Shown here: in pieces, positions 1-16,012 of the stretch
How the letters are laid out: each line of letters begins with the position of its first letter
Numbering within the stretch: position 1 is the stretch's first letter
IMG/VR virus record: IMGVR_UViG_2654587792_000008
Location: 1-16,012 of that record
Length of the DNA stretch: 16,012 nucleotides
Strand: one strand, 5' to 3'
From: a virus
Taxonomy: Duplodnaviria; Heunggongvirae; Uroviricota; Caudoviricetes
Notes under the pieces: generated by a model
Seen by the model: only the letters and a program-made list of their open reading frames with translations
Told to the model about the DNA's origin: nothing
Database searches by the model: none
Position numbers and translations under genes: made by a program

Positions 1-510
1 GTGGCTACGCAGACTGAAGTTGCCAGGCATTTAAGTCTGACCGATCGCCAGCTTCGCAGATTGCAGAAATTGCCGGGTGCCCCGATATCGAATAAGCGAG
101 GGCAACTGGATCTGGATGCCTGGCGCGATTTTTACATATCGTATCTGAGGAGAAGTAAAAACGATGTGCCTGATGGCGATAGCGAAGACGACTATGAGGA
201 GAAATTGCTTATTGCCAGATGGGAACTGACAGCAGAACAGGCTGTTACACAGCAGTTAAAAAATGAGGTGTCAAAAGGAAAACTGATTGACACCGGGTTC
301 TGTATTTTTGCCCTCAGTAAGCTGGCAATGGCGTTATCCAGTACGCTTGATTCCATCCCTTTATCCATGCAGCGACAGTTTCCTGATTTAACACCGCGCC
401 ATCTTGACCATCTGAAAACCCTTATTGCGAAGGGGGCAAATCAGTGTGCGCGGGCAGGGGATAAATTACCGGATTTACTCGATGAATATATCAGAGCAAC
501 AACTGAATAA
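1..510 (+). CDS. nu1: Terminase small subunit (lambda Nu1-like); start at window edge, possibly 5'-partial or GTG-initiated
   Basis: ORF 1..510 (169 aa). N-terminal segment TEVARHLSLTDRQLRRLQKLPGAPI resembles the HTH region of lambda gpNu1 as recalled. It sits directly upstream of, and overlaps by 29 nt, the terminase large subunit, as in lambda. Confidence 0.8.
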   Translation: MATQTEVARHLSLTDRQLRRLQKLPGAPISNKRGQLDLDAWRDFYISYLRRSKNDVPDGDSEDDYEEKLLIARWELTAEQAVTQQLKNEVSKGKLIDTGFCIFALSKLAMALSSTLDSIPLSMQRQFPDLTPRHLDHLKTLIAKGANQCARAGDKLPDLLDEYIRATTE

Positions 511-2410
511 TATGATGGCTGCCGTTTCGGTTGCGCTGCAGCCTCTGGTCAGGGTTGTACCAATGACGGCAGTTGAATGGGCTGATCAAAATTATTATCT
601 GCCTAAAGAATCTTCATATGGTGAGGGAGAATGGAAAACGCTGCCATTCCAGATCGCCATTATGAACTGTATGGGTAACGACCAGGTTCGCACGGTTAAC
701 CTGATTAAATCTGCCCGTGTTGGCTATACAAAGATGTTGCTGGGGGTGGTCGGGTATTTTATTGAGCATAAATCCCGAAACAGTCTGCTTTTTCAGCCCA
801 CGGATTCTGCCGCTGAAGATTTTATGAAGTCTCACGTGGAGGCGACGATTCGGAACGTGCCATGCCTGAAAGACCTTTCCCCATGGCTGGGTCGTAAACA
901 TCGTGACAATACTCTCACGCTGAAACGCTTTTCATCGGGCGTCGGTTTCTGGTGCCTGGGCGGCGCAGCCGCCAAAAACTACCGTGAAAAATCCGTGGAC
1001 GTGGTCTGCTATGACGAACTTTCCTCGTTCGAGCCGGATGTCGAAAAAGAGGGCTCGCCAACCCTGCTGGGGGATAAGCGTATTGAGGGCTCGGTATGGC
1101 CAAAATCCATTCGCGGCTCGACGCCTAAAATCAAAGGCACCTGCCAGATCGAAAAAGCCGCCAACGAGTCGGCGCATTTCATGCGTTTCTATGTGCCCTG
1201 CCCGCACTGTGGGGAGGAGCAGTATCTGAAATTTGGCGATGAGTCCACGCCTTTTGGGCTTAAATGGGAGAAGGACAGCCCTGAAAGTGTTTTCTACCTC
1301 TGTGAACATCATGGCTGCGTGATCCATCAGTCTGAGCTTGACCAGAGCAACGGGCGGTGGATCTGTGAAAACACGGGCATGTGGACCCGTGACGGTCTGA
1401 CGTTTTTCAGCGCCCGGGGTGATGAAATTCCGCCGCCGCGCTCCATCACGTTCCATATCTGGACGGCGTACAGTCCGTTCACCACCTGGGTACAGATTGT
1501 CTATGACTGGCTGGATGCACTGAAAGATCCCAACGGCCTGAAAACCTTTGTGAACACCACGCTGGGCGAGACCTGGGAAGAGGCCGTGGGCGAAAAACTC
1601 GATCACCAGGTACTGATGGATAAGGTGGTGCGTTACACGGCGGCGGTGCCTGCCCGGGTGGTTTATCTGACGGCGGGCATTGACTCGCAGCGAAACCGTT
1701 TTGAGATGTATGTCTGGGGATGGGCACCGGGAGAGGAAGCCTTTCTGGTGGATAAAATCATCATTATGGGCCGTCCCGATGAGGAAGAGACGCTGTTACG
1801 TGTGGATGCGGCGATCAACAAAAAATACCGCCATGCAGACGGAACCGAAATGACCATTTCCCGTGTCTGCTGGGACACCGGGGGGATCGATGGTGAAATT
1901 GTCTATCAGAGATCAAAAAAACACGGTGTTTTCCGGGTGCTGCCGGTAAAAGGCGCATCTGTCTATGGCAAGCCGGTGATCACCATGCCAAAAACCCGCA
2001 ATCAGCGGGGCGTGTATCTGTGTGAAGTGGGAACGGACACCGCAAAAGAAATTCTCTATGCCCGTATGAAAGCCGATCCCACGCCTGCGGATGAAGCCAC
2101 GTCGTATGCCATCCGTTTTCCTGATGATCCGGAGATTTTTTCGCAGACAGAGGCGCAGCAACTGGTGGCGGAAGAGCTGGTGGAGAAGTGGGAAAAAGGA
2201 AAGATGCGTCTGCTGTGGGATAACAAAAAGCGGCGTAACGAAGCGCTGGACTGCCTGGTGTATGCCTACGCGGCATTACGTGTGTCCGTGCAACGCTGGC
2301 AGCTTGATCTGGCTGTACTGGCAAAATCCCGGGAAGAAGAGACGACCCGGCCAACCCTGAAAGAACTGGCAGCGAAGCTGTCCGGAGGAGTGAATGGTTA
2401 CAGTCGCTGA
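482..2410 (+). CDS. A: Terminase large subunit (lambda gpA-like)
   Basis: ORF-track frame 425..2410. Start moved to the in-frame ATG at 482 (MNISEQQ...), matching the recalled lambda gpA N-terminus MNISNSQ. Long conserved blocks shared with recalled gpA include TAVEWAD.NYYLPKES, KSARVGY.KMLLGV, FMRF.V.CPHCGEEQYLKFGD, HIWTAYSPFTTWVQIV, FVNTTLGETWE, SKKHG.FRV.P.KGASVYGKPV and KKRRNEALDC. Confidence 0.93.
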   Translation: MNISEQQLNNMMAAVSVALQPLVRVVPMTAVEWADQNYYLPKESSYGEGEWKTLPFQIAIMNCMGNDQVRTVNLIKSARVGYTKMLLGVVGYFIEHKSRNSLLFQPTDSAAEDFMKSHVEATIRNVPCLKDLSPWLGRKHRDNTLTLKRFSSGVGFWCLGGAAAKNYREKSVDVVCYDELSSFEPDVEKEGSPTLLGDKRIEGSVWPKSIRGSTPKIKGTCQIEKAANESAHFMRFYVPCPHCGEEQYLKFGDESTPFGLKWEKDSPESVFYLCEHHGCVIHQSELDQSNGRWICENTGMWTRDGLTFFSARGDEIPPPRSITFHIWTAYSPFTTWVQIVYDWLDALKDPNGLKTFVNTTLGETWEEAVGEKLDHQVLMDKVVRYTAAVPARVVYLTAGIDSQRNRFEMYVWGWAPGEEAFLVDKIIIMGRPDEEETLLRVDAAINKKYRHADGTEMTISRVCWDTGGIDGEIVYQRSKKHGVFRVLPVKGASVYGKPVITMPKTRNQRGVYLCEVGTDTAKEILYARMKADPTPADEATSYAIRFPDDPEIFSQTEAQQLVAEELVEKWEKGKMRLLWDNKKRRNEALDCLVYAYAALRVSVQRWQLDLAVLAKSREEETTRPTLKELAAKLSGGVNGYSR

Positions 2411-2600
2411 ACTGCAGGCGCTGCGTCAGGCGCGCCTTGATTTATTAACCGGTAAACGGGTGGTGTCTGTCCAGAAAGATGGTCGCAGAATTGAATATAC
2501 GGCGGCTTCTCTGGATGAGCTTAACCGGGCGATCAATGATGCGGAGTCGGTACTGGGGACAACCCGACGTCGCCGTCGTCCGCTGGGAGTGAGGTTATGA
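2394..2600 (+). CDS. W: Head-tail joining / head completion protein (lambda gpW-like)
   Basis: 68-aa ORF with LTGKRVVSVQKDGRRIEYTAASL, matching recalled lambda gpW ([22 protein letters not shown]), which is also 68 aa. Overlaps the terminase stop and the portal start (ATGA overlap at 2597-2600). Confidence 0.9.
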   Translation: MVTVAELQALRQARLDLLTGKRVVSVQKDGRRIEYTAASLDELNRAINDAESVLGTTRRRRRPLGVRL

Positions 2601-4189
2601 AACGAACGCCTGTCCTGATTGATGTGAACGGCGTTCCGCTTCGTGAGAGTCTCAGCTACAACGGGGGCGGCGCAGGATTTGGCGGGCAAATGGCGGAGTG
2701 GTTGCCACCGGCGCAGAGTGCCGATGCGGCCCTGCTGCCCGCGTTGCGTCTGGGGAATGCCCGGGCAGATGATCTGGTGCGCAATAACGGAATAGCGGCC
2801 AATGCGGTGGCCCTGCATAAGGATCACATTGTCGGGCATATGTTTCTGATCAGCTACCGTCCGAACTGGCGCTGGCTGGGGATGCGGGAGACCGCAGCAA
2901 AAAGCTTTGTCGATGAGGTGGAGGCGGCCTGGTCGGAATACGCAGAAGGGATGTCTGGCGAGATCGACGTGGAAGGAAAACGCACATTCACGGAATTTAT
3001 CCGTGAAGGTGTGGGCGTTCATGCGTTTAACGGCGAAATCTTTGTGCAGCCGGTCTGGGATACGGAAACCACGCAGTTATTCCGTACGCGTTTTAAAGCC
3101 GTGAGTCCGAAACGGGTGGACACGCCAGGACACGGTATGGGGAACCGTTTTCTGCGGGCCGGGGTGGAGGTCGATCGATATGGCCGTGCCGTTGCGTACC
3201 ATATCTGTGAGGATGATTTTCCGTTCTCCGGGAGTGGACGATGGGAACGGATCCCGCGTGAACTTCCCACCGGGCGTCCGGCCATGCTGCATATTTTCGA
3301 GCCGGTGGAGGACGGGCAGACCCGTGGGGCCAACCAGTTTTACAGCGTCATGGAACGGCTGAAGATGCTCGATTCCCTGCAGGCAACACAGCTTCAGTCG
3401 GCCATTGTGAAAGCCATGTATGCAGCGACGATTGAAAGTGAACTTGATACCGAAAAGGCCTTTGAATATATCGCCGGCGCGCCACAGGAGCAGAAGGATA
3501 ATCCGCTTATTAATATTCTGGAGAAGTTCTCCAGCTGGTATGACACGAATAACGTGACACTGGGCGGTGTCAAAATTCCGCACCTTTTCCCCGGGGATGA
3601 TCTGAAACTACAGACTGCGCAGGATTCAGACAATGGATTTTCGGCGCTTGAACAGGCGCTGCTGCGGTATATCGCCGCCGGTCTTGGCGTTTCCTACGAA
3701 CAGTTGTCCCGTGATTACTCGAAGGTCAGTTATTCAAGTGCCAGGGCCTCTGCCAATGAGTCGTGGCGCTATTTTATGGGGCGGCGAAAATTTATTGCGG
3801 CCCGGCTGGCCACGCAGATGTTTTCCTGCTGGCTGGAAGAGGCACTTCTTCGGGGGATTATCCGTCCGCCACGGGCGCGTTTTGATTTTTATCAGGCGCG
3901 ATCAGCCTGGTCACGGGCAGAGTGGATTGGTGCCGGAAGAATGGCCATTGACGGGCTCAAGGAGGTTCAGGAATCAGTGATGCGCATTGAGGCCGGACTG
4001 AGCACGTATGAGAAAGAGCTGGCGCTGATGGGCGAGGATTATCAGGACATTTTCCGCCAGCAGGTCAGGGAATCTGCAGAGCGACAAAAAGCCGGACTCT
4101 CACGTCCGGTGTGGATAGCGCAGGCGTATCAGCAGCAGATAGCGGAGAGTCGCAGGCCGGAAGAGGAGACAACACCACGTGAGACGTAA
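2597..4189 (+). CDS. B: Portal protein (lambda gpB-like)
   Basis: 530-aa ORF (lambda gpB is about 533 aa). Conserved blocks include GNARADDLVRNNG.AANA, FEPVEDGQTRGAN.FYSVME, LQSAIVKAMYAATIESELDT, LLRYIAAGLGVSYEQLSR, ARASANESW.YFMGRRKF and GRMAIDGLKEVQE.VM.IEAGLSTYEKE. Confidence 0.93.
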   Translation: MKRTPVLIDVNGVPLRESLSYNGGGAGFGGQMAEWLPPAQSADAALLPALRLGNARADDLVRNNGIAANAVALHKDHIVGHMFLISYRPNWRWLGMRETAAKSFVDEVEAAWSEYAEGMSGEIDVEGKRTFTEFIREGVGVHAFNGEIFVQPVWDTETTQLFRTRFKAVSPKRVDTPGHGMGNRFLRAGVEVDRYGRAVAYHICEDDFPFSGSGRWERIPRELPTGRPAMLHIFEPVEDGQTRGANQFYSVMERLKMLDSLQATQLQSAIVKAMYAATIESELDTEKAFEYIAGAPQEQKDNPLINILEKFSSWYDTNNVTLGGVKIPHLFPGDDLKLQTAQDSDNGFSALEQALLRYIAAGLGVSYEQLSRDYSKVSYSSARASANESWRYFMGRRKFIAARLATQMFSCWLEEALLRGIIRPPRARFDFYQARSAWSRAEWIGAGRMAIDGLKEVQESVMRIEAGLSTYEKELALMGEDYQDIFRQQVRESAERQKAGLSRPVWIAQAYQQQIAESRRPEEETTPRET

Positions 4190-5684
4190 TCTTTCACACA
4201 TTATTGCCGCAGCATTCAATGAACCGCTGCTTCTGGAGCCCGCCTATGCGCGGGTTTTCTTTTGCGCGCTCGGGCGCGAGATGGGGGCATCAAGTCTTTC
4301 GGTACCACAACAGCAGGTACAGTTTGATGCTCCCGGAATGCTGGCTGAAACGGACGAGTACATGGCCGTAGGTAAACGACCGGCCCGTGTTTACCGGGTG
4401 GTGAACGGTATTGCTGTACTGCCGGTGACCGGCACGCTGGTGCACCGGCTGGGGGGTATGCGGCCATTTTCCGGAATGACAGGCTATGACGGCATTGTCG
4501 CCTGTCTTCAGCAGGCAATGGCGGATAGCCAGGTGCGGGGCGTACTGCTGGACATTGACAGTCCGGGCGGGCAGGCCGCCGGCGCGTTTGACTGCGCTGA
4601 CATGATTTACCGCCTCCGTCAGCAGAAGCCGGTCTGGGCACTGTGCAATGACACGGCCTGCTCTGCAGCCATGCTGCTGGCGTCGGCCTGCTCCCGACGG
4701 CTGGTTACCCAGACATCCCGTATCGGCTCCATTGGCGTGATGATGAGCCATGTCAGCTATGCCGGTCATCTGGCGCAGGCCGGTGTGGATATCACGCTGA
4801 TTTACTCAGGGACGCACAAGGTGGATGGCAATCAGTTTGAAGCCTTACCGGCAGAGGTTCGCCAGGACATGCAACAGCGCATTGATGCGGCGCGCCGGAT
4901 GTTTGCCGAAAAAGTGGCGATGTATACCGGTCTGTCTGTTGATGCCGTCACGGGAACAGAGGCCGCCGTTTTTGAAGGTCAGTCCGGCATTGAGGCCGGG
5001 CTGGCGGATGAATTAGTCAATGCGTCGGATGCCATCAGTGTGATGGCCACGGCGCTGAACAGTAATGTCAGAGGAGGCACTATGCCGCAATTAACTGCAA
5101 CGGAAGCCGCCGCGCAGGAGAACCAGCGAGTGATGGGGATCCTGACATGCCAGGAAGCGAAAGGACGTGAACAGCTTGCCACGATGCTGGCAGGACAACA
5201 GGGCATGAGCGTTGAACAGGCCCGGGCGATTCTGGCCGCGGCGGCACCGCAGCAGCCGGTGGCATCCACGCAGAGTGAAGCCGATCGCATTATGGCGTGT
5301 GAAGAAGCGAACGGTCGTGAACAACTGGCGGCAACGCTGGCGGCGATGCCGGAGATGACGGTGGAAAAAGCCCGCCCGATCCTGGCTGCTTCACCGCAGG
5401 CGGATGCCGGACCCTCACTCCGTGATCAGATCATGGCACTGGATGAGGCAAAAGGGGATGAGGCGCAGGCTGAACAGCTGGCTGCCTGCCCGGGAATGAC
5501 TGTGGAGAGCGCCCGGGCTGTGCTGGCTGCGAGATCAGGTAAGGCAGAACCGGTCTCTGCATCCACAACCGCCCTGTTTGAACGCATCATGGCGAACCAT
5601 TCACCGGCAGCGGTACAGGGTGGCGTGCCACAGACGTCAGCAGACGGTGATGCGGACGTGAAAATGCTCATGGCCATGCCATGA
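4179..5684 (+). CDS. C: Head maturation protease / scaffold (lambda gpC-like, S49/ClpP-type peptidase fold) with an expanded C-terminal repeat region; apparent GTG start
   Basis: 501-aa ORF. N-terminus AAFNEPLLLEPAYARVFFCAL matches recalled lambda gpC (MAFNEPLMLEPAYARVFFCAL). Conserved protease-region blocks include NGIAVLPV.GTL, SGMTGY.GI, AGAFDCAD.I, KPVWAL.ND, CSA..LLASA.SRRLVTQT.R.GSIGVMM.H and ITLIYSG.HKVDGN. Codon 4179-4181 is GTG and overlaps the portal stop. Confidence 0.9.
   Translation: MRRNLSHIIAAAFNEPLLLEPAYARVFFCALGREMGASSLSVPQQQVQFDAPGMLAETDEYMAVGKRPARVYRVVNGIAVLPVTGTLVHRLGGMRPFSGMTGYDGIVACLQQAMADSQVRGVLLDIDSPGGQAAGAFDCADMIYRLRQQKPVWALCNDTACSAAMLLASACSRRLVTQTSRIGSIGVMMSHVSYAGHLAQAGVDITLIYSGTHKVDGNQFEALPAEVRQDMQQRIDAARRMFAEKVAMYTGLSVDAVTGTEAAVFEGQSGIEAGLADELVNASDAISVMATALNSNVRGGTMPQLTATEAAAQENQRVMGILTCQEAKGREQLATMLAGQQGMSVEQARAILAAAAPQQPVASTQSEADRIMACEEANGREQLAATLAAMPEMTVEKARPILAASPQADAGPSLRDQIMALDEAKGDEAQAEQLAACPGMTVESARAVLAARSGKAEPVSASTTALFERIMANHSPAAVQGGVPQTSADGDADVKMLMAMP
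5082..5684 (+). CDS. Possible nested in-frame scaffolding protein (lambda Nu3-like) from an internal start within C
   Basis: In-frame ATG at 5082 preceded by GAGGAGG (5071-5077). Lambda expresses Nu3 from an internal in-frame start in the 3' part of C. The product would contain the repeat region. The short 4-nt SD spacer and lack of expression data keep confidence low. Confidence 0.4.
   Translation: MPQLTATEAAAQENQRVMGILTCQEAKGREQLATMLAGQQGMSVEQARAILAAAAPQQPVASTQSEADRIMACEEANGREQLAATLAAMPEMTVEKARPILAASPQADAGPSLRDQIMALDEAKGDEAQAEQLAACPGMTVESARAVLAARSGKAEPVSASTTALFERIMANHSPAAVQGGVPQTSADGDADVKMLMAMP
5125..5684 (+). repeat. Intragenic imperfect tandem repeats (about 140-160 bp period, roughly 3.3 copies) in the C/Nu3 scaffold domain
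   Basis: Protein-level repeats are visible directly: RVMGILTCQEAKGREQLATMLAGQQGMSVEQARAILAAA / RIMACEEANGREQLAATLAAMPEMTVEKARPILAAS / QIMALDEAKGDEAQAEQLAACPGMTVESARAVLAAR / RIMANH... Recalled lambda gpC has a single copy (IMGILNCEEAHGREEQARVLAETPGMTVKTARRILAAA). Confidence 0.75.
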
Positions 5685-8516: not shown

Positions 8517-8908
8517 AACATACTGATATCCGTGCTGCAGTGCTGGATGCACTCGAGCAGCATGAACACGGGGCGACGCTGTTTGATGGTCGCCCCGCTG
8601 TTTTTGATGAGGCGGATTTTCCGGCAATTGCTGTTTATCTCACCGGCGCTGAATACACGGGCGAAGCGCTGGACAGCGATACCTGGCAGGCGGAGCTGCA
8701 TATTGAAGTTTTCCTGCCTGCTCAGGTGCCGGATTCAGAGCTGGATTCGTGGATGGAAAGCCGGATTTATCCGGCGATGAGTGCGATCCCGGCACTGTCA
8801 GGCCTGATTACCACGATGGTTACGCAGGGCTATGAGTATCGTCGTGATGACGATATGGCGTTATGGAGTTCTGCTGATTTGACTTATTCCATTACATACG
8901 AGATGTGA
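8513..8908 (+). CDS. U: Tail terminator protein (lambda gpU-like)
   Basis: 131-aa ORF (lambda gpU is 131 aa) in the canonical position between Z and V; start overlaps the Z stop. Called by synteny, size and general similarity to recalled gpU. Confidence 0.88.
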
Positions 8909-8915
8909 GGACGAT

Positions 8916-9668
8916 ATGCCAACACCAAATCCTCTGGCACCGGTAAAAGGTGCCGGTACCACCCTGTGGGTTTATAACGGTCAGGGTGATGCCTATGCAA
9001 ACCCGTTGTCAGACGATAACTGGCAGCGACTGGCACAGGTAAAGGATCTGACGCCGGGCGAGATGACGGCAGAACCCTACGATGATAACTACCTGGATGA
9101 TGAAGACGCGGACTGGACCGCGACCGGGCAGGGGCAGAAGTCTGCAGGAGATACCAGTTTTACGCTGGCCTGGAAACCGGGAGAAGAAGGTCAGAAAGGG
9201 CTTATAGGCTGGTTTGAAAGCGGGGATGTGCGGGCCTATAAAATCCGTTTCCCGAACGGCACGGTGGATGTGTTCCGTGGCTGGGTCAGCAGTATCGGTA
9301 AGGCCGTAACGGCGAAGGAAGTGATCACCCGTACGGTGAAAGTGACCAACGTGGGTAAACCTTCTGTGGCGGAAGAACGCAGCGAAATTACGCCGGTCAC
9401 TGCGATTAAGGTGACGCCGACATCTGGTACGGTGGCAAAAGGGAAAACAACAACCCTGACGGTTTCTTTTGAGCCGGAAAGTGCAACCGACAAAACGTTC
9501 AGAGCGGTTTCCGCCGATCCGTCAACGGGAACCATTGCTGTGAAAGATATGGCGATCACTGTGACGGGGGTTAAGGCTGGAAAAGTGAGTATCCCCGTGA
9601 TTTCCGGTAATGGTCAGTTTGCCACGGTAGCTGAAGTCACCGTTACTGAAGCGGGCGCTGCAGGGTAA
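8916..9668 (+). CDS. V: Major tail tube protein (lambda gpV-like) with C-terminal Ig-like domain
   Basis: 250-aa ORF. Conserved [86 protein letters not shown] and a C-terminal Thr/Val-rich beta segment (FRAVSAD...SGNG.FA.VAE.TVT) typical of the gpV Ig-like domain. Confidence 0.93.
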
Positions 9669-9681
9669 ACGGAGGTAATAC

Positions 9682-10113
9682 ATGTTTCTGAAAACCGAAC
9701 AATTTGAATATAACGGTGTGTCCGTCACGCTTTCCGAGCTGTCTGCGCTGCAGCGTATCGAGCATCTTGCCCTGCTGAAACGACGGGCAGAACAGGCTGA
9801 AGCCAGCGGTAACCTGCAGGTGAGCGTGGAAGACCTTGTCAGAACCGGCGCGTTTCTGGTGGCGATGTCCCTGTGGCATAACCATCCACAGAAAACGGAG
9901 TCACCATCAATGAATGAGGCTGTGATGCAGATCGAACAGGAGGTGCTCACCACCTGGCCTGCTGATGCCATTGCCCGGGCGGAAGACGTGGTGTTGCGTC
10001 TGTCCGGGATGAGCGGGGCTGTTCATGTGGATACGGATATCACCGAAGTGGCGAAAAATAACGCGCTTACTGATGATGATTTTTCTGCGGGAAAGTCTTC
10101 GACGGCGAGCTGA
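9682..10113 (+). CDS. G: Tail assembly chaperone (lambda gpG-like)
   Basis: 143-aa ORF (lambda gpG is about 140 aa) immediately after V with RBS GGAGGT. Contains the conserved GGGAAAG slippery heptamer near its 3' end. Confidence 0.9.
   Translation: MFLKTEQFEYNGVSVTLSELSALQRIEHLALLKRRAEQAEASGNLQVSVEDLVRTGAFLVAMSLWHNHPQKTESPSMNEAVMQIEQEVLTTWPADAIARAEDVVLRLSGMSGAVHVDTDITEVAKNNALTDDDFSAGKSSTAS
10089..10095 (+). promoter_or_regulatory. Programmed -1 ribosomal frameshift slippery site (G GGA AAG) for G-T fusion
   Basis: GGGAAAG at 10089-10095 lies in the G zero frame as G|GGA|AAG, the same heptamer and register as the lambda G-T site. The downstream -1 frame is open to 10553. Confidence 0.8.
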
Positions 10114-10553
10114 ATTTTGCCCTCAGACTGGCGCGTGAGATGGGGAGGCCTGACTGGCGCGCCATGCTTGCCGGGATGACATCCACCGAATATGCCGACT
10201 GGCGACATTTTTACCGCACGCATTATTTTCAGGATACCCAGCTGGATATGCATTTTTCCGGGCTGATGTACGCTGTACTCAGCCTGTTTTTTTGCGATCC
10301 GGATATGCATCCCTCTGATTTCAGTCTGCTTGTCCCCCGGCATGAGGAAGAGCAGGTGGAGAGGCTGGATGAGGACAAAATGCTGATGCAGAAAGCGGCA
10401 GGACTTGCCGGAGGCGTCCGGTTCGGTGGGGACGGAGGGCGCGATATTTTATCGTCTGCGGATGTGGCGGATGTCATGGTGGATGATGCCGCATTAATGA
10501 TGGCTTCAGCGGGGATTCCAGGAGGTGTGAGATATGTCCCAGCCGGTTGGTGA
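10095..10553 (+). CDS. T: Tail assembly protein T-frame segment (lambda gpT-like), expressed as a G-T fusion by -1 frameshift; no independent start assumed
   Basis: The -1 frame relative to G is open from the slippery site to the stop at 10553, and its 3' end overlaps the H start (10534), as in lambda G/T/H. The ORF-track ATG at 10140 is in this frame. Confidence 0.78.
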   Translation, partial: VFDGELNFALRLAREMGRPDWRAMLAGMTSTEYADWRHFYRTHYFQDTQLDMHFSGLMYAVLSLFFCDPDMHPSDFSLLVPRHEEEQVERLDEDKMLMQKAAGLAGGVRFGGDGGRDILSSADVADVMVDDAALMMASAGIPGGVRYVPAGW

Positions 10554-11160
10554 TCTTATTATTGACCTGAGTCTGGATGCGGTCCGTTTCGATGAGCAGA
10601 TGAGCCGGGTAAGGCGTCATTTTTCAGGACTGGATACTGACGCCAGAAAAACCGCCAGTGCTGTTGAACAGGGCCTGAGCCGCCAGGCGCTGGCTGCACA
10701 AAAAGCCGGGATTTCCGTCGGGCAGTATAAAGCGGCCATGCGAACCCTGCCCGCACAGTTTACGGATATCGCCACGCAGCTTGCCGGTGGTCAGAATCCC
10801 TGGCTGATCCTGCTGCAACAGGGCGGTCAGGTGAAGGACTCCTTCGGCGGGATGATCCCCATGCTCAGGGGGCTTGCCGGTGCGATCACCCTGCCGATGG
10901 TCGGGGTCACCTCGCTGGCGGTGGCGACAGGTGCGCTGGCGTACGCCTGGTACCAGGGGGATTCCACGCTTTCAGCGTTTAATAAAACCCTGGTTCTTTC
11001 CGGTAATCAGTCCGGACTGACTGCCGATCGTATGCTGACTCTCTCAAGAGCCGGGCAGGCAGCAGGGCTGACGTTTAACCAGGCGAGAGAGTCACTGGCT
11101 GTATTGATTCACTTGAAGTACGAAAAAAACCGGGAGGACATTGGATTATTCGGGATCTGA
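10534..11160 (+). pseudogene. H: Tape measure protein gene H, 5' fragment only (about 188 native codons), disrupted by Mu insertion; frame runs 20 codons into Mu before a stop
   Basis: N-terminus VGDL..DLSLDA.RFDEQM.RVRRHFSG ... ALAAQKAGISVGQYKAAMR.LPAQFTD.ATQLAGGQ.PWLILLQQGGQVKDSFGGMIPM.RGLAGAITLPMVG.TSLAVATGALAYAWYQG.STLS.FNKTLVLSGNQ.GLTADRML.LSRAGQAAGLTFNQ matches recalled lambda gpH (853 aa). Similarity ends at about 11099, where the Mu terminus begins. Confidence 0.9.
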
Positions 11161-11271
11161 TGGGATTAGATTTGGTGGGGCTTGCAAGCCTGTAGCGCAA
11201 ATTTTAGTCGTTAATCAATGAAACGCGAAAGATAGTAAAAAATTGCTTTTGTTTCATTGAAAATACGAAAA
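11100..11271 (+). repeat. Mu attL with transposase-binding sites L1 (about 11105-11126), L2 (about 11210-11231) and L3 (about 11250-11271)
   Basis: L1 TGATTCACTTGAAGTACGAAAA and L3 TGTTTCATTGAAAATACGAAAA fit the MuA site consensus TGNTTCAYTNNAAGYRCGAAAR. L2 (TTAATCAATGAAACGCGAAAG) is a weaker match. Spacing corresponds to Mu coordinates 6-27, 111-132 and 151-172. Confidence 0.85.
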
Positions 11272-11437
11272 ACAAAAACACTGCAAATCATTTCAATAAC
11301 AGCTTCAAAAAACGTTCAAAACCGATAACAACCAAGCTGTCACCAAATGACTCATATCACAAATCAGCTTATGCCGTTTAGGTATGTTACATGTGTGATT
11401 ATGTGAGGTGAAGTATGTTTTAGCTGGTTCATGGTTG

Positions 11438-12028
11438 TTATACGGCTTTTTTTACCTCCTGTGGTTCCTGTGAAGGTACTACAACACTTTCCTGTTCATG
11501 AATCCCATACTTTGACAAAATCTCTTTGCGTTTTTCTTCAGGTAATGCATCTAGCATCATCAACGTCTGAATACTTTGCTGTGAAAATCCTATAAAGCTG
11601 TAAAGTTTCTGTTCATTAAATACAAGAGGCATTAACGCCAACAACCCCCCTTTACTTAAAAGTTTCAGTGCCTTGCGTGCTTCATCTGGTTCCAGCTCTT
11701 CAATCATATTGATTAAGGTTGTGGTTAATTTGTTTATCAGTTCCGAAGAATCCTGTTTCTCATTGGCTTGAGCACCAGTATCCGGTGTGGATAACCCCAA
11801 GTGCGCAATAACTTGCTCTCGTTCTTTGGTGGGCATCGACATCACATCGTATTCAACAGCTTTCCCCCCCTTGACACCTTCCTTTTTTCGCTTCGTCCAG
11901 CCTTGAACATTTGCTCGATAGTGAACACCAGCAACAGATCCAGGCATACCATCAGCAGCCATAATTTCTTGCGGCGAACACCAAATTGACTTTTCAGTAT
12001 TATCCTTTTCTATAAAGTTACTTTTCAA
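11438..12028 (-). CDS. c: Mu repressor c
   Basis: 196-aa ORF on the - strand: MKSNFIEK.NTEKSIWCSPQEIMAADGMPGSVAGVHYRANVQGWTKRKKEGVKGGKAVEY..., matching recalled Mu Rep (196 aa). Divergent from ner across the operator region. Confidence 0.95.
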   Translation of the reverse strand: MKSNFIEKDNTEKSIWCSPQEIMAADGMPGSVAGVHYRANVQGWTKRKKEGVKGGKAVEYDVMSMPTKEREQVIAHLGLSTPDTGAQANEKQDSSELINKLTTTLINMIEELEPDEARKALKLLSKGGLLALMPLVFNEQKLYSFIGFSQQSIQTLMMLDALPEEKRKEILSKYGIHEQESVVVPSQEPQEVKKAV

Positions 12029-12197
12029 AATTTAAACCCCTTATTTATCAACGCGTTAATCAGTAATCAAAGGAATTTACCAAAAAGCAGCTTTACAAAA
12101 AGCTTTTCAGTAATTATCTTTTTAGCAAGCTAGCTAAGTTTTTACACTTAGTTAAATTGCTAACTTTATAGATTACAAAACTTAGGAGGGTTTTTAA
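12029..12197. promoter_or_regulatory. Mu early regulatory region: operators O1-O3, IHF site, divergent promoters Pe and Pc, overlapping the transposition enhancer
   Basis: AT-rich 169-bp region between divergent c and ner, about 930-1098 bp from the Mu left end, where these elements lie in Mu. Individual operator boundaries are not resolved here. SD TAGGAGGG precedes the ner ATG. Confidence 0.7.
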
Positions 12198-12425
12198 ATG
12201 TGTTCCAACGAAAAGGCCCGTGATTGGCATCGTGCGGATGTGATTGCGGGACTTAAGAAAAGAAAGCTCTCTTTATCAGCTCTTTCCCGGCAGTTTGGTT
12301 ATGCGCCAACTACATTAGCTAATGCGCTAGAACGACACTGGCCAAAGGGTGAGCAGATTATTGCTAACGCCTTAGAAACTAAACCGGAAGTAATCTGGCC
12401 TAGCCGATATCAAGCAGGTGAGTAA
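12198..12425 (+). CDS. ner: Mu Ner (negative regulator of early transcription; small DNA-binding protein)
   Basis: 75-aa [78 protein letters not shown], matching recalled Mu Ner (75 aa) and its position. Confidence 0.93.
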
Positions 12426-12426
12426 C

Positions 12427-14418
12427 ATGGAACTTTGGGTATCACCGAAAGAGTGTGCGAATCTTCCTGGTTTGCCGAAAACATCGGCTGGTGTGATTTA
12501 TGTTGCTAAAAAGCAAGGATGGCAAAACCGCACTAGAGCAGGTGTCAAAGGTGGTAAAGCAATTGAATACAATGCGAACTCTTTACCTGTTGAAGCGAAA
12601 GCGGCGTTATTGCTGAGACAAGGAGAGATTGAAACAAGCCTGGGGTATTTTGAAATCGCCCGCCCCACGCTGGAAGCCCATGATTATGATCGTGAGGCAC
12701 TGTGGAGCAAATGGGATAACGCCAGCGATTCCCAGCGCAGACTTGCTGAAAAATGGTTGCCTGCGGTTCAGGCTGCAGACGAAATGCTGAACCAGGGGAT
12801 TTCAACGAAAACGGCTTTTGCGACCGTTGCAGGGCATTACCAGGTCAGCGCATCCACTTTGCGGGACAAGTATTACCAGGTACAGAAGTTTGCGAAGCCT
12901 GACTGGGCGGCTGCACTTGTTGATGGACGTGGAGCATCCCGTCGCAATGTTCACAAAAGTGAATTTGACGAGGATGCCTGGCAGTTTCTGATTGCAGATT
13001 ATCTGCGACCGGAAAAACCCGCTTTCCGCAAATGTTATGAGCGTCTGGAACTGGCAGCCCGCGAGCATGGCTGGAGTATTCCCTCCCGTGCCACGGCCTT
13101 TCGCCGGATTCAGCAACTGGACGAGGCAATGGTTGTTGCCTGTCGTGAAGGTGAACATGCACTGATGCATCTGATACCGGCACAGCAGCGAACTGTGGAA
13201 CACCTGGACGCCATGCAGTGGATCAACGGCGACGGTTATCTGCATAACGTCTTTGTACGCTGGTTTAACGGTGATGTGATCCGTCCGAAAACATGGTTCT
13301 GGCAGGATGTGAAAACCCGAAAAATTCTGGGCTGGCGCTGCGATGTGAGCGAGAACATTGATTCAATTCGCCTCTCGTTCATGGATGTTGTGACTCGCTA
13401 CGGTATCCCGGAGGATTTTCACATCACCATTGATAACACCCGTGGTGCTGCGAATAAATGGCTGACGGGAGGCGCGCCCAATCGCTACCGCTTTAAGGTA
13501 AAAGAGGACGATCCAAAAGGGCTGTTTTTACTGATGGGTGCGAAAATGCACTGGACAAGCGTTGTTGCTGGTAAAGGCTGGGGCCAGGCAAAACCTGTTG
13601 AACGTGCTTTCGGTGTTGGTGGGCTTGAGGAATACGTTGATAAGCATCCGGCACTGGCTGGCGCATATACGGGGCCTAATCCGCAGGCAAAACCTGATAA
13701 CTATGGCGACCGCGCTGTTGATGCAGAGCTGTTTCTGAAAACCCTTGCCGAAGGTGTGGCGATGTTCAATGCCAGAACAGGCCGTGAAACAGAAATGTGC
13801 GGAGGCAAACTTTCGTTTGATGACGTTTTTGAGCGTGAATACGCCAGAACGATTGTGCGTAAGCCTACCGAAGAGCAAAAACGGATGCTGTTACTGCCTG
13901 CCGAGGCGGTGAACGTTTCACGCAAAGGCGAGTTTACGCTTAAAGTTGGCGGCTCCCTTAAAGGCGCGAAAAACGTTTATTACAACATGGCGTTAATGAA
14001 TGCCGGAGTGAAAAAAGTTGTGGTCAGATTTGATCCACAGCAGTTACACAGCACGGTTTATTGCTACACCCTGGACGGTCGGTTTATCTGTGAAGCGGAA
14101 TGTCTGGCACCTGTTGCGTTTAATGATGCTGCGGCAGGTCGTGAATATCGCCGCCGCCAGAAACAACTGAAATCTGCGACGAAAGCAGCGATTAAGGCAC
14201 AGAAACAAATGGATGCACTGGAAGTGGCAGAGCTGCTGCCGCAGATAGCCGAACCTGAAGCACCAGAATCACGAATTGTCGGCATTTTCCGGCCTTCCGG
14301 TAATACGGAACGAGTGAAGAATCAGGAGCGTGATGATGAATACGAAACTGAGCGTGATGAATATCTGAATCATTCGCTGGATATTCTGGAACAGAACAGA
14401 CGTAAAAAAGCCATTTAA
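12427..14418 (+). CDS. A: Mu transposase MuA (DDE transposase)
   Basis: Start placed at ATG 12427 ([32 protein letters not shown]...), giving 663 aa, the known MuA length. The ORF-track GTG at 12418 would add 3 residues. Full-length similarity to recalled MuA, including the enhancer-binding N-terminal domain and basic C-terminal region. Confidence 0.95.
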
Positions 14419-14456
14419 TTAACGTTTAAACAAAATTTAATTACGAGGTTATTCAG

Positions 14457-15395
14457 ATGAATATTTCCGATATTCGCGCAGGACTGCGCACGCTTGTAGA
14501 AAATGAAGAAACCACCTTTAAACAAATTGCTCTTGAGAGCGGACTTTCTACCGGAACTATCAGTAGTTTTATCAATGATAAGTACAACGGGGATAACGAG
14601 CGTGTTTCACAAATGCTGCAACGCTGGCTGGAAAAATATCATGCAGTTGCAGAACTACCTGAACCGCCCCGCTTTGTGGAAACGCAGACGGTAAAACAAA
14701 TCTGGACAAGTATGCGTTTTGCCAGCCTGACTGAAAGTATTGCTGTTGTATGTGGCAATCCTGGTGTGGGCAAAACCGAAGCGGCCCGTGAATATCGCCG
14801 CACCAATAACAATGTCTGGATGATCACCATTACGCCATCCTGTGCCAGCGTTCTGGAATGTCTTACTGAACTGGCGTTTGAGCTGGGAATGAATGACGCA
14901 CCACGCCGTAAAGGGCCGCTCTCCCGCGCCCTGCGACGTCGCCTTGAAGGTACACAGGGGCTGGTTATCATCGACGAAGCTGATCATCTTGGTGCCGAAG
15001 TTCTGGAAGAACTCCGCCTGTTACAGGAATCAACCCGTATTGGCCTTGTGCTGATGGGAAATCACCGGGTTTATTCAAATATGACGGGGGGTAACAGAAC
15101 GGTTGAATTTGCCCGTCTGTTTTCCCGTATTGCAAAGCGCACTGCAATTAATAAAACCAAAAAAGCCGATGTAAAAGCTATTGCGGATGCCTGGCAGATT
15201 AACGGCGAAAAAGAACTGGAGTTATTACAGCAGATTGCGCAGAAACCAGGTGCGCTTCGCATTCTGAATCATTCACTTCGCCTTGCAGCCATGACGGCTC
15301 ACGGTAAAGGTGAGCGTGTTAACGAAGATTATCTGCGTCAGGCTTTCCGTGAATTAGACCTGGACGTTGATATTTCAACGCTGCTGCGTAATTAA
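14457..15395 (+). CDS. B: Mu transposition target-DNA activator MuB (AAA+ ATPase)
   Basis: 312-aa ORF (MuB is 312 aa). Walker A GNPGVGKT at about 14751-14777 and Walker B LVIIDEADHL, with an N-terminal HTH-like segment. Immediately downstream of A. Confidence 0.95.
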   Translation: MNISDIRAGLRTLVENEETTFKQIALESGLSTGTISSFINDKYNGDNERVSQMLQRWLEKYHAVAELPEPPRFVETQTVKQIWTSMRFASLTESIAVVCGNPGVGKTEAAREYRRTNNNVWMITITPSCASVLECLTELAFELGMNDAPRRKGPLSRALRRRLEGTQGLVIIDEADHLGAEVLEELRLLQESTRIGLVLMGNHRVYSNMTGGNRTVEFARLFSRIAKRTAINKTKKADVKAIADAWQINGEKELELLQQIAQKPGALRILNHSLRLAAMTAHGKGERVNEDYLRQAFRELDLDVDISTLLRN

Positions 15396-15410
15396 GAAGG
15401 AGAAGAAATT

Positions 15411-15638
15411 ATGATGGCCCGAAATATAAAAATGGCAACGGATGCGCAGAACTGGTTACAGGCGCGCGGGAGTCATGTAAATGAATCATATCTCGGCGTG
15501 GCGCGTCCGATTCTTGAAATCACTTACCCACCGGTGGAACTGGTAAAAAACGCGGTCAGAATTATGGAGCATAAATCCGGAGTTGCCCGTTCTGTATGGA
15601 CGGCCCGTCTTAATGGTTGCCAGATTATCTGGAGATAA
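15411..15638 (+). CDS. kil: Mu Kil-like small protein (first gene of the semi-essential region downstream of B)
   Basis: 75-aa ORF directly after B with RBS AAGGAGAAG. Position and size agree with Mu kil (about 74 aa). Called by synteny and size; I cannot verify residue-level identity from memory. Confidence 0.6.
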
Positions 15639-15640
15639 CG

Positions 15641-15871
15641 ATGTGTATTAAAGCTGAAAAATATATTGAATGGGTTAAACACTGTCAGTGCCACGGGGTG
15701 CCGCTGACGACATATAAATGCCCCGGATGTGGTGAACAGATTATGACGCAATGCTCACCCGAAAAGGAAATTCGGGATTCCATGACATGTTGTCCGTGGT
15801 GCAGCGCAGTTTTCTTTAAACAGGTAAAAGGCGCGAAGGTAAAAGCCAGCGCGGTTATTCAGAATCAATAA
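15641..15871 (+). CDS. Small Cys-rich protein (putative zinc-ribbon), Mu early/semi-essential region, function unknown
   Basis: ATG at 15641 with GGAGA RBS (the ORF-track TTG at 15617 overlaps kil). 76 aa with CQCH...CPGCGEQ...CSPEKE...CCPWC, giving paired CxxC-type spacing suggestive of a Zn-binding ribbon. Position corresponds to the ORF after kil in Mu. Confidence 0.5.
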   Translation: MCIKAEKYIEWVKHCQCHGVPLTTYKCPGCGEQIMTQCSPEKEIRDSMTCCPWCSAVFFKQVKGAKVKASAVIQNQ

Positions 15872-16012
15872 GGTGAAACAAAATGGCAAAAGTAATTATT
15901 GAAATTAAAAATACAGGTGATGCTGCCAACTTACTGATTTAGTGTATGATGGTGTTTTTGAGGTGCTCCAGTGGCTTCTGTTTCTATCAGCTGTCCCTCC
16001 TGTTCAGCTACT

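What the first reader, a model, noticed from the sequence alone, without database searches (positions are those of the whole stretch)
10534..11271. Mu left end inserted into the tape-measure gene H of a lambda-like prophage
The H reading frame matches lambda gpH up to ...LTFNQARESLA. At 11100 the DNA switches to TGTATTGATTCACTTGAAGTACGAAAAAAA, the canonical Mu left terminus, followed by L1/L2/L3 sites at canonical spacing and by c, ner, A and B. The 5 bp immediately left of the Mu terminus (CTGGC, 11095-11099) fit Mu's preferred target pentamer N-Y-(G/C)-R-N, supporting a genuine transposition junction rather than an assembly chimera. The insertion would leave the lambdoid prophage unable to build tails and makes the region a nested mobile element.
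Basis: partly seen in the sequence, partly recalled or inferred. Interest (0 to 1): 0.7.

Follow-up and report, generated by a model that had tools for sequence, protein, structure and literature searches.

The report
Mu prophage end interrupting lambdoid tail gene
A natural copy of the transposable phage Mu has inserted into the tail tape-measure gene of a lambda-like prophage and was then itself hit by an IS1 element; this is a real but ordinary case of mobile elements nested inside one another.

Summary
Window 11100 aligns with base 1 of the phage Mu reference, with 41 substitutions and no indels over 4,817 bp. Genes c, ner, A, B, kil and gp6 are intact, and the MuA sites L1-L3 are in place. 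Up to 11099 the DNA is a lambdoid tape-measure gene H, cut within codon 189 of 853-859.

Ten independent natural insertions carrying the same MuA variant all begin at the same TGTATTG with unrelated flanks. This makes 11100 a true element boundary and an assembly chimera very unlikely.

The window is a whole draft contig (JHTM01000134.1, GCA_001506145.1). It ends only 4.8 kb into Mu, inside an IS1 inserted in Mu gene 7. As a result, the Mu right end and the CTGGC duplication cannot be checked here, and every indirect search for them failed. Loss of the rest of Mu through IS1-mediated deletion is not excluded.

The CTGGC pentamer is weak evidence, because 16% of local pentamers fit N-Y-S-R-N.

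Verdict: a genuine Mu left junction in H, and known biology. Interest is low.

The parts
9682..10113 (+). Lambdoid tail assembly chaperone gene G, with a GGGAAAG slippery site at 10089-10095
   Evidence: PF06894 Phage_TAC_2. Annotated gpG in near-identical prophages. Slippery heptamer found.
10140..10553 (+). Lambdoid tail assembly gene T
   Evidence: PF06223 Phage_tail_T. Annotated as tail assembly protein T in relatives.
10534..11099 (+). H': the 5' 566 nt (188 codons plus 2 nt) of the lambdoid tape-measure gene, truncated by the insertion
   Evidence: 86% identical to lambda gpH. 98% identical over 193 aligned residues to an intact 859-aa homologue. 0 nt differences from the H alleles of E2348/69, FDAARGOS_1059 and 12A. 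PF06791 TMP_2.
10534..11160 (+). Read-through ORF: H residues 1-189 plus 19 residues encoded by the Mu left end (VLIHLKYEKNREDIGLFGI*)
   Evidence: Translation. This exact protein occurs on only one contig in the public collection.
11095..11099 (.). CTGGC, the target pentamer immediately left of Mu and the presumed left copy of the 5-bp duplication
   Evidence: Sequence. Fits N-Y-S-R-N, as do 16% of local pentamers. Matches 4 of 5 positions of CYSRG (PMC7350765).
11100..15916 (+). Left arm of phage Mu (Mu bases 1-4817; base 4817 is shared with the first G of IS1)
   Evidence: 99.1% identical to NC_000929/AF083977 from base 1. 41 substitutions, no indels. Identical at all 4,816 compared positions to the Mu in GCA_001265465.1.
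11105..11126 (+). MuA binding site L1
   Evidence: 0 mismatches to the recalled 22-bp MuA-site consensus, 0.04 matches expected by chance. Identical to the reference.
11210..11231 (+). MuA binding site L2 (weak site; only the right half AAACGCGAAA matches the consensus)
   Evidence: Read. Identical to Mu reference bases 111-132.
11250..11271 (+). MuA binding site L3
   Evidence: 0 mismatches to the consensus. Identical to the reference.
11438..12028 (-). Mu repressor gene c (196 aa)
   Evidence: PF02316 HTH_Tnp_Mu_1. Intact, with 2 amino-acid differences from the reference: D9 for N9 and R47 for Q47.
12198..12425 (+). Mu ner
   Evidence: PF13693. Protein identical to the reference.
12427..14418 (+). 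Mu transposase gene A (663 aa)
   Evidence: PF02316, PF09039, PF02914 DDE_2 and PF09299. One substitution, E611 for A611. This exact protein is listed in 121 blocks of the collection.
14457..15395 (+). Mu B (AAA+ target-capture ATPase, 312 aa)
   Evidence: PF13401 and PF09077 Phage-MuB_C. Identical to the reference.
15411..15638 (+). Mu kil
   Evidence: PF26843. Identical to the reference over 74 aa.
15641..15871 (+). Mu gp6
   Evidence: PF26833. One substitution.
15883..15915 (+). First 11 codons of Mu gene 7 (Mup07), cut by IS1
   Evidence: Mup07 starts at Mu 4784. Identity to Mu ends at Mu 4817.
15916..16012 (+). Left terminal 97 bp of IS1 (IRL GGTGATGCTGCC...), running off the contig end
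   Evidence: 100% identical to an annotated IS1A copy. Matches more than 72,000 places in E. coli genomes annotated as IS1 transposase.

Best explanation
A wild-type-like phage Mu inserted by MuA-catalysed transposition into the tape-measure gene H of a resident lambda-like prophage. The host is an E. coli-type genome: contig JHTM01000134.1 of assembly GCA_001506145.1.

The insertion splits codon 189 of an 853-859-codon gene. This leaves a 208-aa read-through product and separates the remaining ~665-670 codons of H, presumably about 37-38 kb downstream beyond Mu's right end.

Mu lies with its early operon (ner, A, B, kil...) in the same direction as the lambdoid late operon. Later, an IS1 inserted into Mu's non-essential early gene 7. 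Because IS1 is multi-copy, the short-read assembly breaks there.

Shown here: the exact left junction, the integrity of the Mu left arm, the IS1 end, and the fact that identical Mu copies elsewhere lack the IS1.

Inferred:
- A Mu right end with a CTGGC duplication exists on another contig.
- The lambdoid prophage can no longer make tails. Its cos-to-cos length would also exceed the lambda packaging limit.
- IS1 may be polar on the downstream Mu early genes, up to mor.
For: - Mu reference base 1 aligns with window 11100, at 99.1% over 4,817 bp with no indels.
- H homology ends at 11099, and the intact allele continues AGCCCTGG there. There is no microhomology at the join.
- Ten independent loci with the same MuA protein all start at the same TGTATTG. 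Their flanks are 20-36% identical to the window's (random level), and 7 of 10 flanks fit N-Y-S-R-N against a 16% background.
- The Mu genes carry the diagnostic Pfam domains and are intact. L1 and L3 match the consensus.
- The Mu copy is natural, not the laboratory phage. It differs from the reference at 41 sites and matches the Mu of GCA_001265465.1 at all 4,816 compared positions; that copy sits at a different chromosomal site with no IS1 end in the 22 kb held.
- The lambdoid part is only about 78% identical to lambda DNA but 99-100% identical to EPEC/STEC prophages.
- The IS1 end is 100% identical to IS1A, and identity to Mu stops at base 4817.
- The contig runs through the junction without a break, so the assembler saw no competing intact-H path (inference).
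Against: - Only one junction is visible. The Mu right end, the second copy of CTGGC and the 3' part of H were not found in viral contigs, genome contigs or metagenome contigs.
- Exact look-up of 18 guessed right-junction gene products also found nothing from this assembly.
- None of those collections is known to hold the other contigs of this assembly, so these negatives are uninformative rather than contrary.
- No second assembly carries the junction: 0 of 5,426 complete E. coli genomes and one contig only.
- Only 13% of Mu is seen, and it ends in an IS1, an element known to cause adjacent deletions.
Confidence: 0.82

Rival explanations
1. Mu remnant. The left junction is a genuine transposition product, but the rest of Mu (and perhaps the 3' part of H and neighbouring prophage DNA) has been lost or moved by IS1-mediated adjacent deletion or IS1-IS1 recombination. 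In that case no right end and no 5-bp duplication exist.
For: - The visible Mu stops at an IS1 end after 4.8 kb.
- Nothing beyond it could be recovered.
- IS1 is known to promote adjacent deletions (established knowledge, recalled).
Against: - A contig break at a multi-copy IS1 is exactly what a simple insertion would also produce in a short-read assembly.
- The Mu left arm shows no decay: all six genes are intact and match a copy in another strain at all 4,816 compared positions. This suggests recent acquisition.
Confidence: 0.12
2. Assembly chimera. Unrelated H and Mu sequences were joined by the assembler.
For: - The source is a draft assembly.
- H 5' regions are repeated among lambdoid prophages, with up to 8 places per genome in relatives.
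- No independent assembly shows the junction.
Against: - The join is exactly at Mu base 1, roughly a 1-in-18,000 coincidence for a random break in a 36.7-kb element with two ends.
- There is no shared sequence at the join that could mislead an overlap or k-mer graph.
- The flanking pentamer fits the Mu target preference.
Confidence: 0.03
3. Subclonal or lytic-phase insertion. The junction comes from Mu replicative transposition in part of the sequenced culture, or from packaged Mu DNA, and not from the stable prophage site.
For: Mu transposes to many sites on induction (PMC7350765).
Against: - Any single lytic target is rare and would not dominate an assembly.
- The contig carries 11.1 kb of flank. 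Mu virions carry only about 50-150 bp of host DNA on the left (recalled knowledge).
- There is no break at the junction, as a mixed population would produce.
Confidence: 0.02
4. Laboratory lambda-Mu hybrid or Mud-type construct.
For: Lambda-Mu hybrids such as lambda placMu exist (recalled).
Against: - The lambdoid part is about 78% identical to lambda DNA and matches wild EPEC/STEC prophages.
- Mu differs from the laboratory reference at 41 sites and matches wild lineages found at many chromosomal sites.
- The repressor has R47 where the reference has Q47. I recall Q47 as the cts62 laboratory allele; this is unverified (one search found no paper).
- A plaque-forming hybrid could not carry an insertion in H.
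Confidence: 0.01

Closest known systems
Escherichia phage Mu (Muvirus mu; NC_000929 / AF083977) as an integrated prophage
   Same: - Identical left terminus and L1-L3 sites, and the same gene order c, ner, A, B, kil, gp6, gp7.
- 99.1% nucleotide identity; proteins differ by 0-2 residues.
- Insertion next to an N-Y-S-R-N pentamer.
   Different: - 41 substitutions, including R47 instead of Q47 in the repressor.
- An IS1 in gene 7.
- Only the first 4.8 kb is visible.
Natural Mu prophages in wild E. coli, e.g. GCA_001265465.1 (L026), E. coli W, and the loci L025-L034
   Same: - Same MuA protein and the same terminus.
- L026 matches at all 4,816 compared positions.
   Different: - Those copies sit in ordinary chromosomal genes or spacers and show no IS1 end in the 22 kb held for each.
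- This one sits inside another prophage's tail gene.
Classical Mu insertions into lambda prophage genes and IS1 insertions in the Mu early region ('X' mutants), from 1970s Mu genetics (recalled from memory, not checked in the paper library)
   Same: - Mu inactivating a lambda late gene by insertion.
- IS1 landing in Mu's early region.
   Different: - Those were laboratory isolates in lambda itself with Mu cts62.
- This is a naturally occurring strain, a non-lambda lambdoid prophage and a wild Mu lineage.
Lambda gpH tape measure protein (NP_040595; PF06791 + PF09718)
   Same: The N-terminal 189 residues are 86% identical, and the gene follows G and T with the GGGAAAG slippery site.
   Different: The gene is cut at codon 189, and the C-terminal domain (PF09718) is absent from the contig.

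Membership tests
Phage Mu (transposable Muvirus) prophage | Left end begins 5'-TG at the canonical terminus | tested here: met
   Window 11100 aligns with reference base 1. The same first base is seen in 10 independent insertions.
Phage Mu (transposable Muvirus) prophage | Three MuA binding sites L1, L2 and L3 in attL at canonical spacing | tested here: met
   L1 at 11105-11126 and L3 at 11250-11271 match the consensus with 0 mismatches. L2 at 11210-11231 matches in its right half only. The whole attL is 340/341 identical to the reference.
Phage Mu (transposable Muvirus) prophage | Repressor c, ner, DDE transposase A with Mu-specific DNA-binding domains, and AAA+ protein B, in that order | tested here: met
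   Pfam domains PF02316, PF13693, PF09039, PF02914, PF09299 and PF09077. All are intact and differ from the reference by 0-2 amino acids.
Phage Mu (transposable Muvirus) prophage | Right end with R1-R3 sites terminating in ...CA | not testable with these tools
   The contig ends 4.8 kb into Mu. The predicted junction was not found in viral, genome or metagenome collections.
Phage Mu (transposable Muvirus) prophage | 5-bp target-site duplication flanking the element | not testable with these tools
   Only the left copy (CTGGC, 11095-11099) is visible. Exact look-ups of 18 guessed right-junction products found none from this assembly.
Phage Mu (transposable Muvirus) prophage | Target pentamer matches the MuA preference (N-Y-S-R-N; CYSRG in PMC7350765) | tested here: met
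   CTGGC fits N-Y-S-R-N and 4 of 5 positions of CYSRG. This is weak evidence: 16% of local pentamers fit N-Y-S-R-N and about 1% fit CYSRG.
Phage Mu (transposable Muvirus) prophage | About 37-kb genome with middle and late genes, the G segment and mom | not testable with these tools
   These lie beyond the contig end. Sister copies with the same MuA carry them at least as far as the terminase genes.
Lambda-type tape measure gene H | N-terminal TMP_2 domain homologous to lambda gpH, located after V, G and T | tested here: met
   Synteny with annotated prophages.
Lambda-type tape measure gene H | Complete ORF of about 853-859 codons with the C-terminal Tape_meas_lam_C domain | tested here: not met
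   The ORF leaves H within codon 189 and stops 19 codons into Mu. It is a disrupted gene.
IS1 | Terminal inverted repeat GGTGATGCTGCCAACTTACTGAT and adjacent sequence | tested here: met
   97 of 97 bases are identical to an annotated IS1A. Thousands of IS1-annotated matches.
IS1 | Full 768-bp element with insA/insB, a second inverted repeat and an 8-9-bp target duplication | not testable with these tools
   The contig ends 97 bp into the element.

The most novel reading that the evidence does not exclude
Mu lies in H with its early operon co-directional with the lambdoid late operon, and no terminator-like site lies in between. SOS induction of the lambdoid prophage could therefore send Q-antiterminated late transcription through the Mu left end. 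That transcription would be antisense to c and sense to ner-A-B. It would couple induction of Mu, which is not normally SOS-inducible, to induction of its host prophage. The lambdoid itself would be dead, being tail-less and too long to package.
Probability: 0.08. Interest if true: 0.4.

Novelty: already known. Interest (0 to 1): 0.13.

Why it matters
It matters little beyond annotation.

It documents a three-level nesting of mobile elements (IS1 in Mu in a lambdoid prophage) in a natural strain. It shows that the lambdoid prophage is almost certainly defective. It also identifies a wild Mu lineage whose left arm matches copies elsewhere exactly.

In practice it tells an annotator three things:
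- The 208-aa 'tape measure' ORF is a truncated read-through pseudogene.
- The contig break is caused by IS1.
- Mu-type prophages are uncommon: the left arm is present in 24 of 5,426 complete E. coli genomes.

No open question becomes testable because of it.

Tried and rejected
1. Predicted right junction GCGCCGCTTCA-N5-AGCCCTGGTGAA: no hit in viral contigs, genome contigs or metagenome contigs. The left junction is also absent from those collections and from 5,426 complete E. coli genomes. These collections evidently do not hold the source assembly, so the negatives carry no weight.
2. Modelling the right-junction ORF. The Mu right end has a stop 17 codons before the junction and no start codon, so no distinctive fusion protein is expected.
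3. Homology search with the H C-terminal 670 aa. The list was swamped by contig-edge fragments.
4. Exact look-ups of 18 guessed truncated H products across 5 alleles.
   - The 668-aa form exists (P0121) but belongs to an H frameshift pseudogene in GCA_047262395.1, with no Mu.
   - The 619- and 591-aa forms were found on other contigs and were not followed up.
   - The 671- and 672-aa partial proteins are contig-edge fragments from other assemblies.
5. Literature search for JHTM01 / GCA_001506145 and for cts62/R47Q: nothing held. Harshey's Mu review (PMC4486318) is not held.
6. A second 13-CPU-hour homology search using an N-terminal 'MNAGV' query. I estimated about a 10% chance of success and did not run it.
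7. The engineered lambda-Mu construct, virion DNA and assembly chimera readings were considered and rejected on sequence grounds (see rivals).

Full report
**What the window is.** An exact-sequence look-up of the junction-spanning ORF shows that the window is a whole record: contig JHTM01000134.1 (16,012 bp) of draft assembly GCA_001506145.1. No held paper mentions the accession. The organism name was not available; the DNA is 99-100% identical to E. coli prophage sequences.

**The observation.** The quoted 30-mer begins at 11100.
- Megablast aligns window 11100-15916 with bases 1-4817 of Mu (AF083977 / NC_000929) at 99.1% identity.
- The first 341 bp differ at a single position, T97C.
- A global alignment gives 41 substitutions and no indels.
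- Left of 11100 the DNA is the morphogenetic operon of a lambdoid prophage: Nu1, A, W, portal, protease, D, E, FI, FII, Z, U, V, G, T, H by Pfam. It is about 78% identical to lambda itself but 94-100% identical to prophages of EPEC/STEC strains.
- The H ORF starting at 10534 is 86% identical to lambda gpH over residues 1-192. It is 98% identical over 193 aligned residues to an intact 859-aa homologue, and homology ends after ...ARESLA.
- Its 566 nt are identical to the 853-aa H alleles of E2348/69, FDAARGOS_1059 and O111:H2 strain 12A.
- In uninterrupted alleles the sequence continues ...CACTGGC|AGCCCTGGTG. In the window it continues ...CACTGGC|TGTATTGATT. The breakpoint is unambiguous, with no shared bases.

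**Is 11100 a true element boundary?** This is the strongest new evidence. The window's exact MuA protein is listed in 121 blocks of the public collection. In the ten loci returned, it sits in Mu prophages at ten different chromosomal places.
- In all ten, similarity to the window starts at the same TGTATTG.
- The 100 bp upstream are 20-36% identical to the window's, which is the random level. The 4,816 bp downstream are 94.8-100% identical.
- A misassembly would have to break Mu by accident at its terminal nucleotide, roughly 1 chance in 18,000 for a 36.7-kb element with two ends. It would also have to do so without any sequence overlap to mislead the assembler.
- I therefore regard the junction as a real MuA strand-transfer product.

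**The pentamer.** CTGGC fits N-Y-(G/C)-R-N, but 16% of pentamers in the lambdoid part do as well. It matches only four of the five positions of the CYSRG consensus, which is preferred about 7-fold in vivo (PMC7350765). Seven of the ten control insertions fit N-Y-S-R-N. That is roughly 2x10^-4 by binomial expectation at 16%, by my own arithmetic. The preference is real as a population trend but says little about any single site.

**Anatomy of the Mu part.**
- L1 (11105-11126) and L3 (11250-11271) match the 22-bp MuA-site consensus, which I recalled from memory, with no mismatches and 0.04 matches expected by chance.
- L2 (11210-11231) matches only in its right half, as expected for a weak site. 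The spacing is that of the reference because there are no indels.
- Six genes are intact: c (11438-12028, minus strand, 196 aa), ner (12198-12425), A (12427-14418), B (14457-15395), kil (15411-15638) and gp6 (15641-15871). Each differs from the reference by 0-2 amino acids, and they carry the diagnostic Pfam domains.
- The repressor has R47 where the reference has Q47. From memory, Q47 is the cts62 laboratory mutation; I could not verify this.
- Independently of that, the copy is clearly a wild lineage. It matches the Mu of GCA_001265465.1 at all 4,816 compared positions, and that copy sits elsewhere in the chromosome.
- Among complete E. coli genomes the best match is 99.2%, and only 24 of 5,426 carry this arm at 80% coverage or more.

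Identity to Mu stops at Mu base 4817 (window 15916), eleven codons into gene 7.
- The remaining 97 bases are 100% identical to the left end of an annotated IS1A. They hit over 72,000 IS1-annotated places in E. coli genomes.
- So an IS1 has inserted into Mu's early region, and the short-read assembly breaks in this multi-copy repeat.
- None of the ten sister Mu copies shows an IS1 end in the 22 kb held for each, so the IS1 is a secondary event. The structure is IS1 within Mu within a lambdoid prophage.

**The decisive test could not be done.** I modelled the right junction as Mu ...CGTGCGCCGCTTCA + CTGGC + AGCCCTGG.
- DNA pattern scans of the viral, species-representative genome and metagenome collections found neither junction.
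- The complete E. coli genomes hold no copy of the left junction.
- Because the Mu right end offers no start codon in the H frame, the expected gene call is simply an N-terminally truncated H.
- I tested 18 such sequences across five alleles by exact look-up. The one promising hit (P0121, 668 aa) proved to be a frameshifted H in an unrelated genome. Two shorter forms found on other contigs were not followed up.
- Near-junction 'partial' proteins from a homology search are contig-edge fragments of other assemblies.
- These negatives reflect where I could look, not the biology.

**Mechanism and consequences.**
- *Shown:* a precise Mu left-end junction within codon 189 of H, giving a 208-aa read-through product.
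- *Inferred from established Mu biology:* the junction arose by MuA-mediated strand transfer with a 5-bp stagger, so a right end followed by CTGGC and the remaining ~665-670 codons of H should exist.
- *Inferred from lambda biology:* without an intact tape measure protein the lambdoid prophage cannot assemble tails. With about 37.5 kb added between its cos sites, its genome would also exceed the packaging limit.
- *Inferred:* IS1, which is classically polar, may reduce expression of Mu early genes downstream of gene 7, including mor. That would impair Mu late development while leaving A and B, which lie upstream, expressible.

**Rivals.**
- *Mu remnant (0.12).* The rest of Mu may have been removed by IS1-mediated deletion. 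This cannot be excluded, because the visible Mu ends in IS1.
- *Assembly chimera (0.03).* Disfavoured by the exact-terminus argument.
- *Subclonal lytic insertion or virion DNA (0.02).* Disfavoured by the 11.1-kb flank and the unbranched contig.
- *Laboratory construct (0.01).* Disfavoured by the non-lambda lambdoid backbone and the wild Mu lineage.

**Comparison with the known, and verdict.** Mu inserts almost at random, and its insertions into lambda prophage genes and IS1 insertions into its own early region belong to classical Mu genetics (recalled, not checked). The element is 99% identical to the type phage. The instance is new but the kind is not.

The only mildly novel reading left open is transcriptional coupling. 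Lambdoid late transcription would run co-directionally into the Mu early operon, with no terminator-like site between them. I give that a low probability.

Noticed in passing
window 15916-16012: The contig ends in the left inverted repeat of IS1, 97 of 97 bases identical to IS1A. The IS1 is inserted 11 codons into Mu gene 7 (Mu base ~4817). None of the ten sister Mu copies shows an IS1 end in the 22 kb held for each, so this is a secondary insertion, and it explains the contig break.
   Followed up: yes
window 11438-12028 (minus strand), codon 47 (also codon 9): The Mu repressor has R47 and D9 where the reference genome has Q47 and N9. I recall Q47 as the temperature-sensitive cts62 laboratory allele carried by the sequenced Mu, which would make the window copy wild type. 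No held paper confirmed this.
   Followed up: partly
L026 (GCA_001265465.1, JHRM01000003.1) 8674-13489: A Mu prophage whose first 4,816 bp match the window's at every compared position sits at a different chromosomal site (next to an AFOR_C/ydhV-like gene). The assembly's accession prefix (JHRM) is close to the window's (JHTM), so it may come from the same sequencing project or strain collection.
   Followed up: partly
window 10089-10095: GGGAAAG lies just upstream of the G stop codon, the same heptamer as lambda's G-T programmed -1 frameshift site. The tail chaperone frameshift is presumably conserved in this prophage.
   Followed up: partly
window 1-510: The contig begins exactly at the start codon of the terminase small subunit (Nu1-like, 169 aa). 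It aligns from base 1 with the annotated gene in strains C3 and AMSHJX01. The assembly probably broke in the repeated cos/lysis-proximal region shared by several lambdoid prophages.
   Followed up: partly
L006 (GCA_047262395.1, JBHJLT010000001.1) 9430-12007, and L023 (NZ_CP010119.1) 13134-14899: Other genomes carry the same H gene as a frameshifted pseudogene, split 161 + 668 aa in L006 and annotated 'frameshifted' in strain C3. L006 and L001 also have an IS66-family element in the head/tail region. Decay of this prophage family's tail module seems common.
   Followed up: no
window 12092-12120: A sigma-70-like match (TTTACA, 17-nt spacer, TATCTT) sits where I recall the Mu early promoter Pe (transcription start near Mu 1028). 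One of the 41 substitutions (Mu 1027, T to C) lies at about the start site.
   Followed up: no
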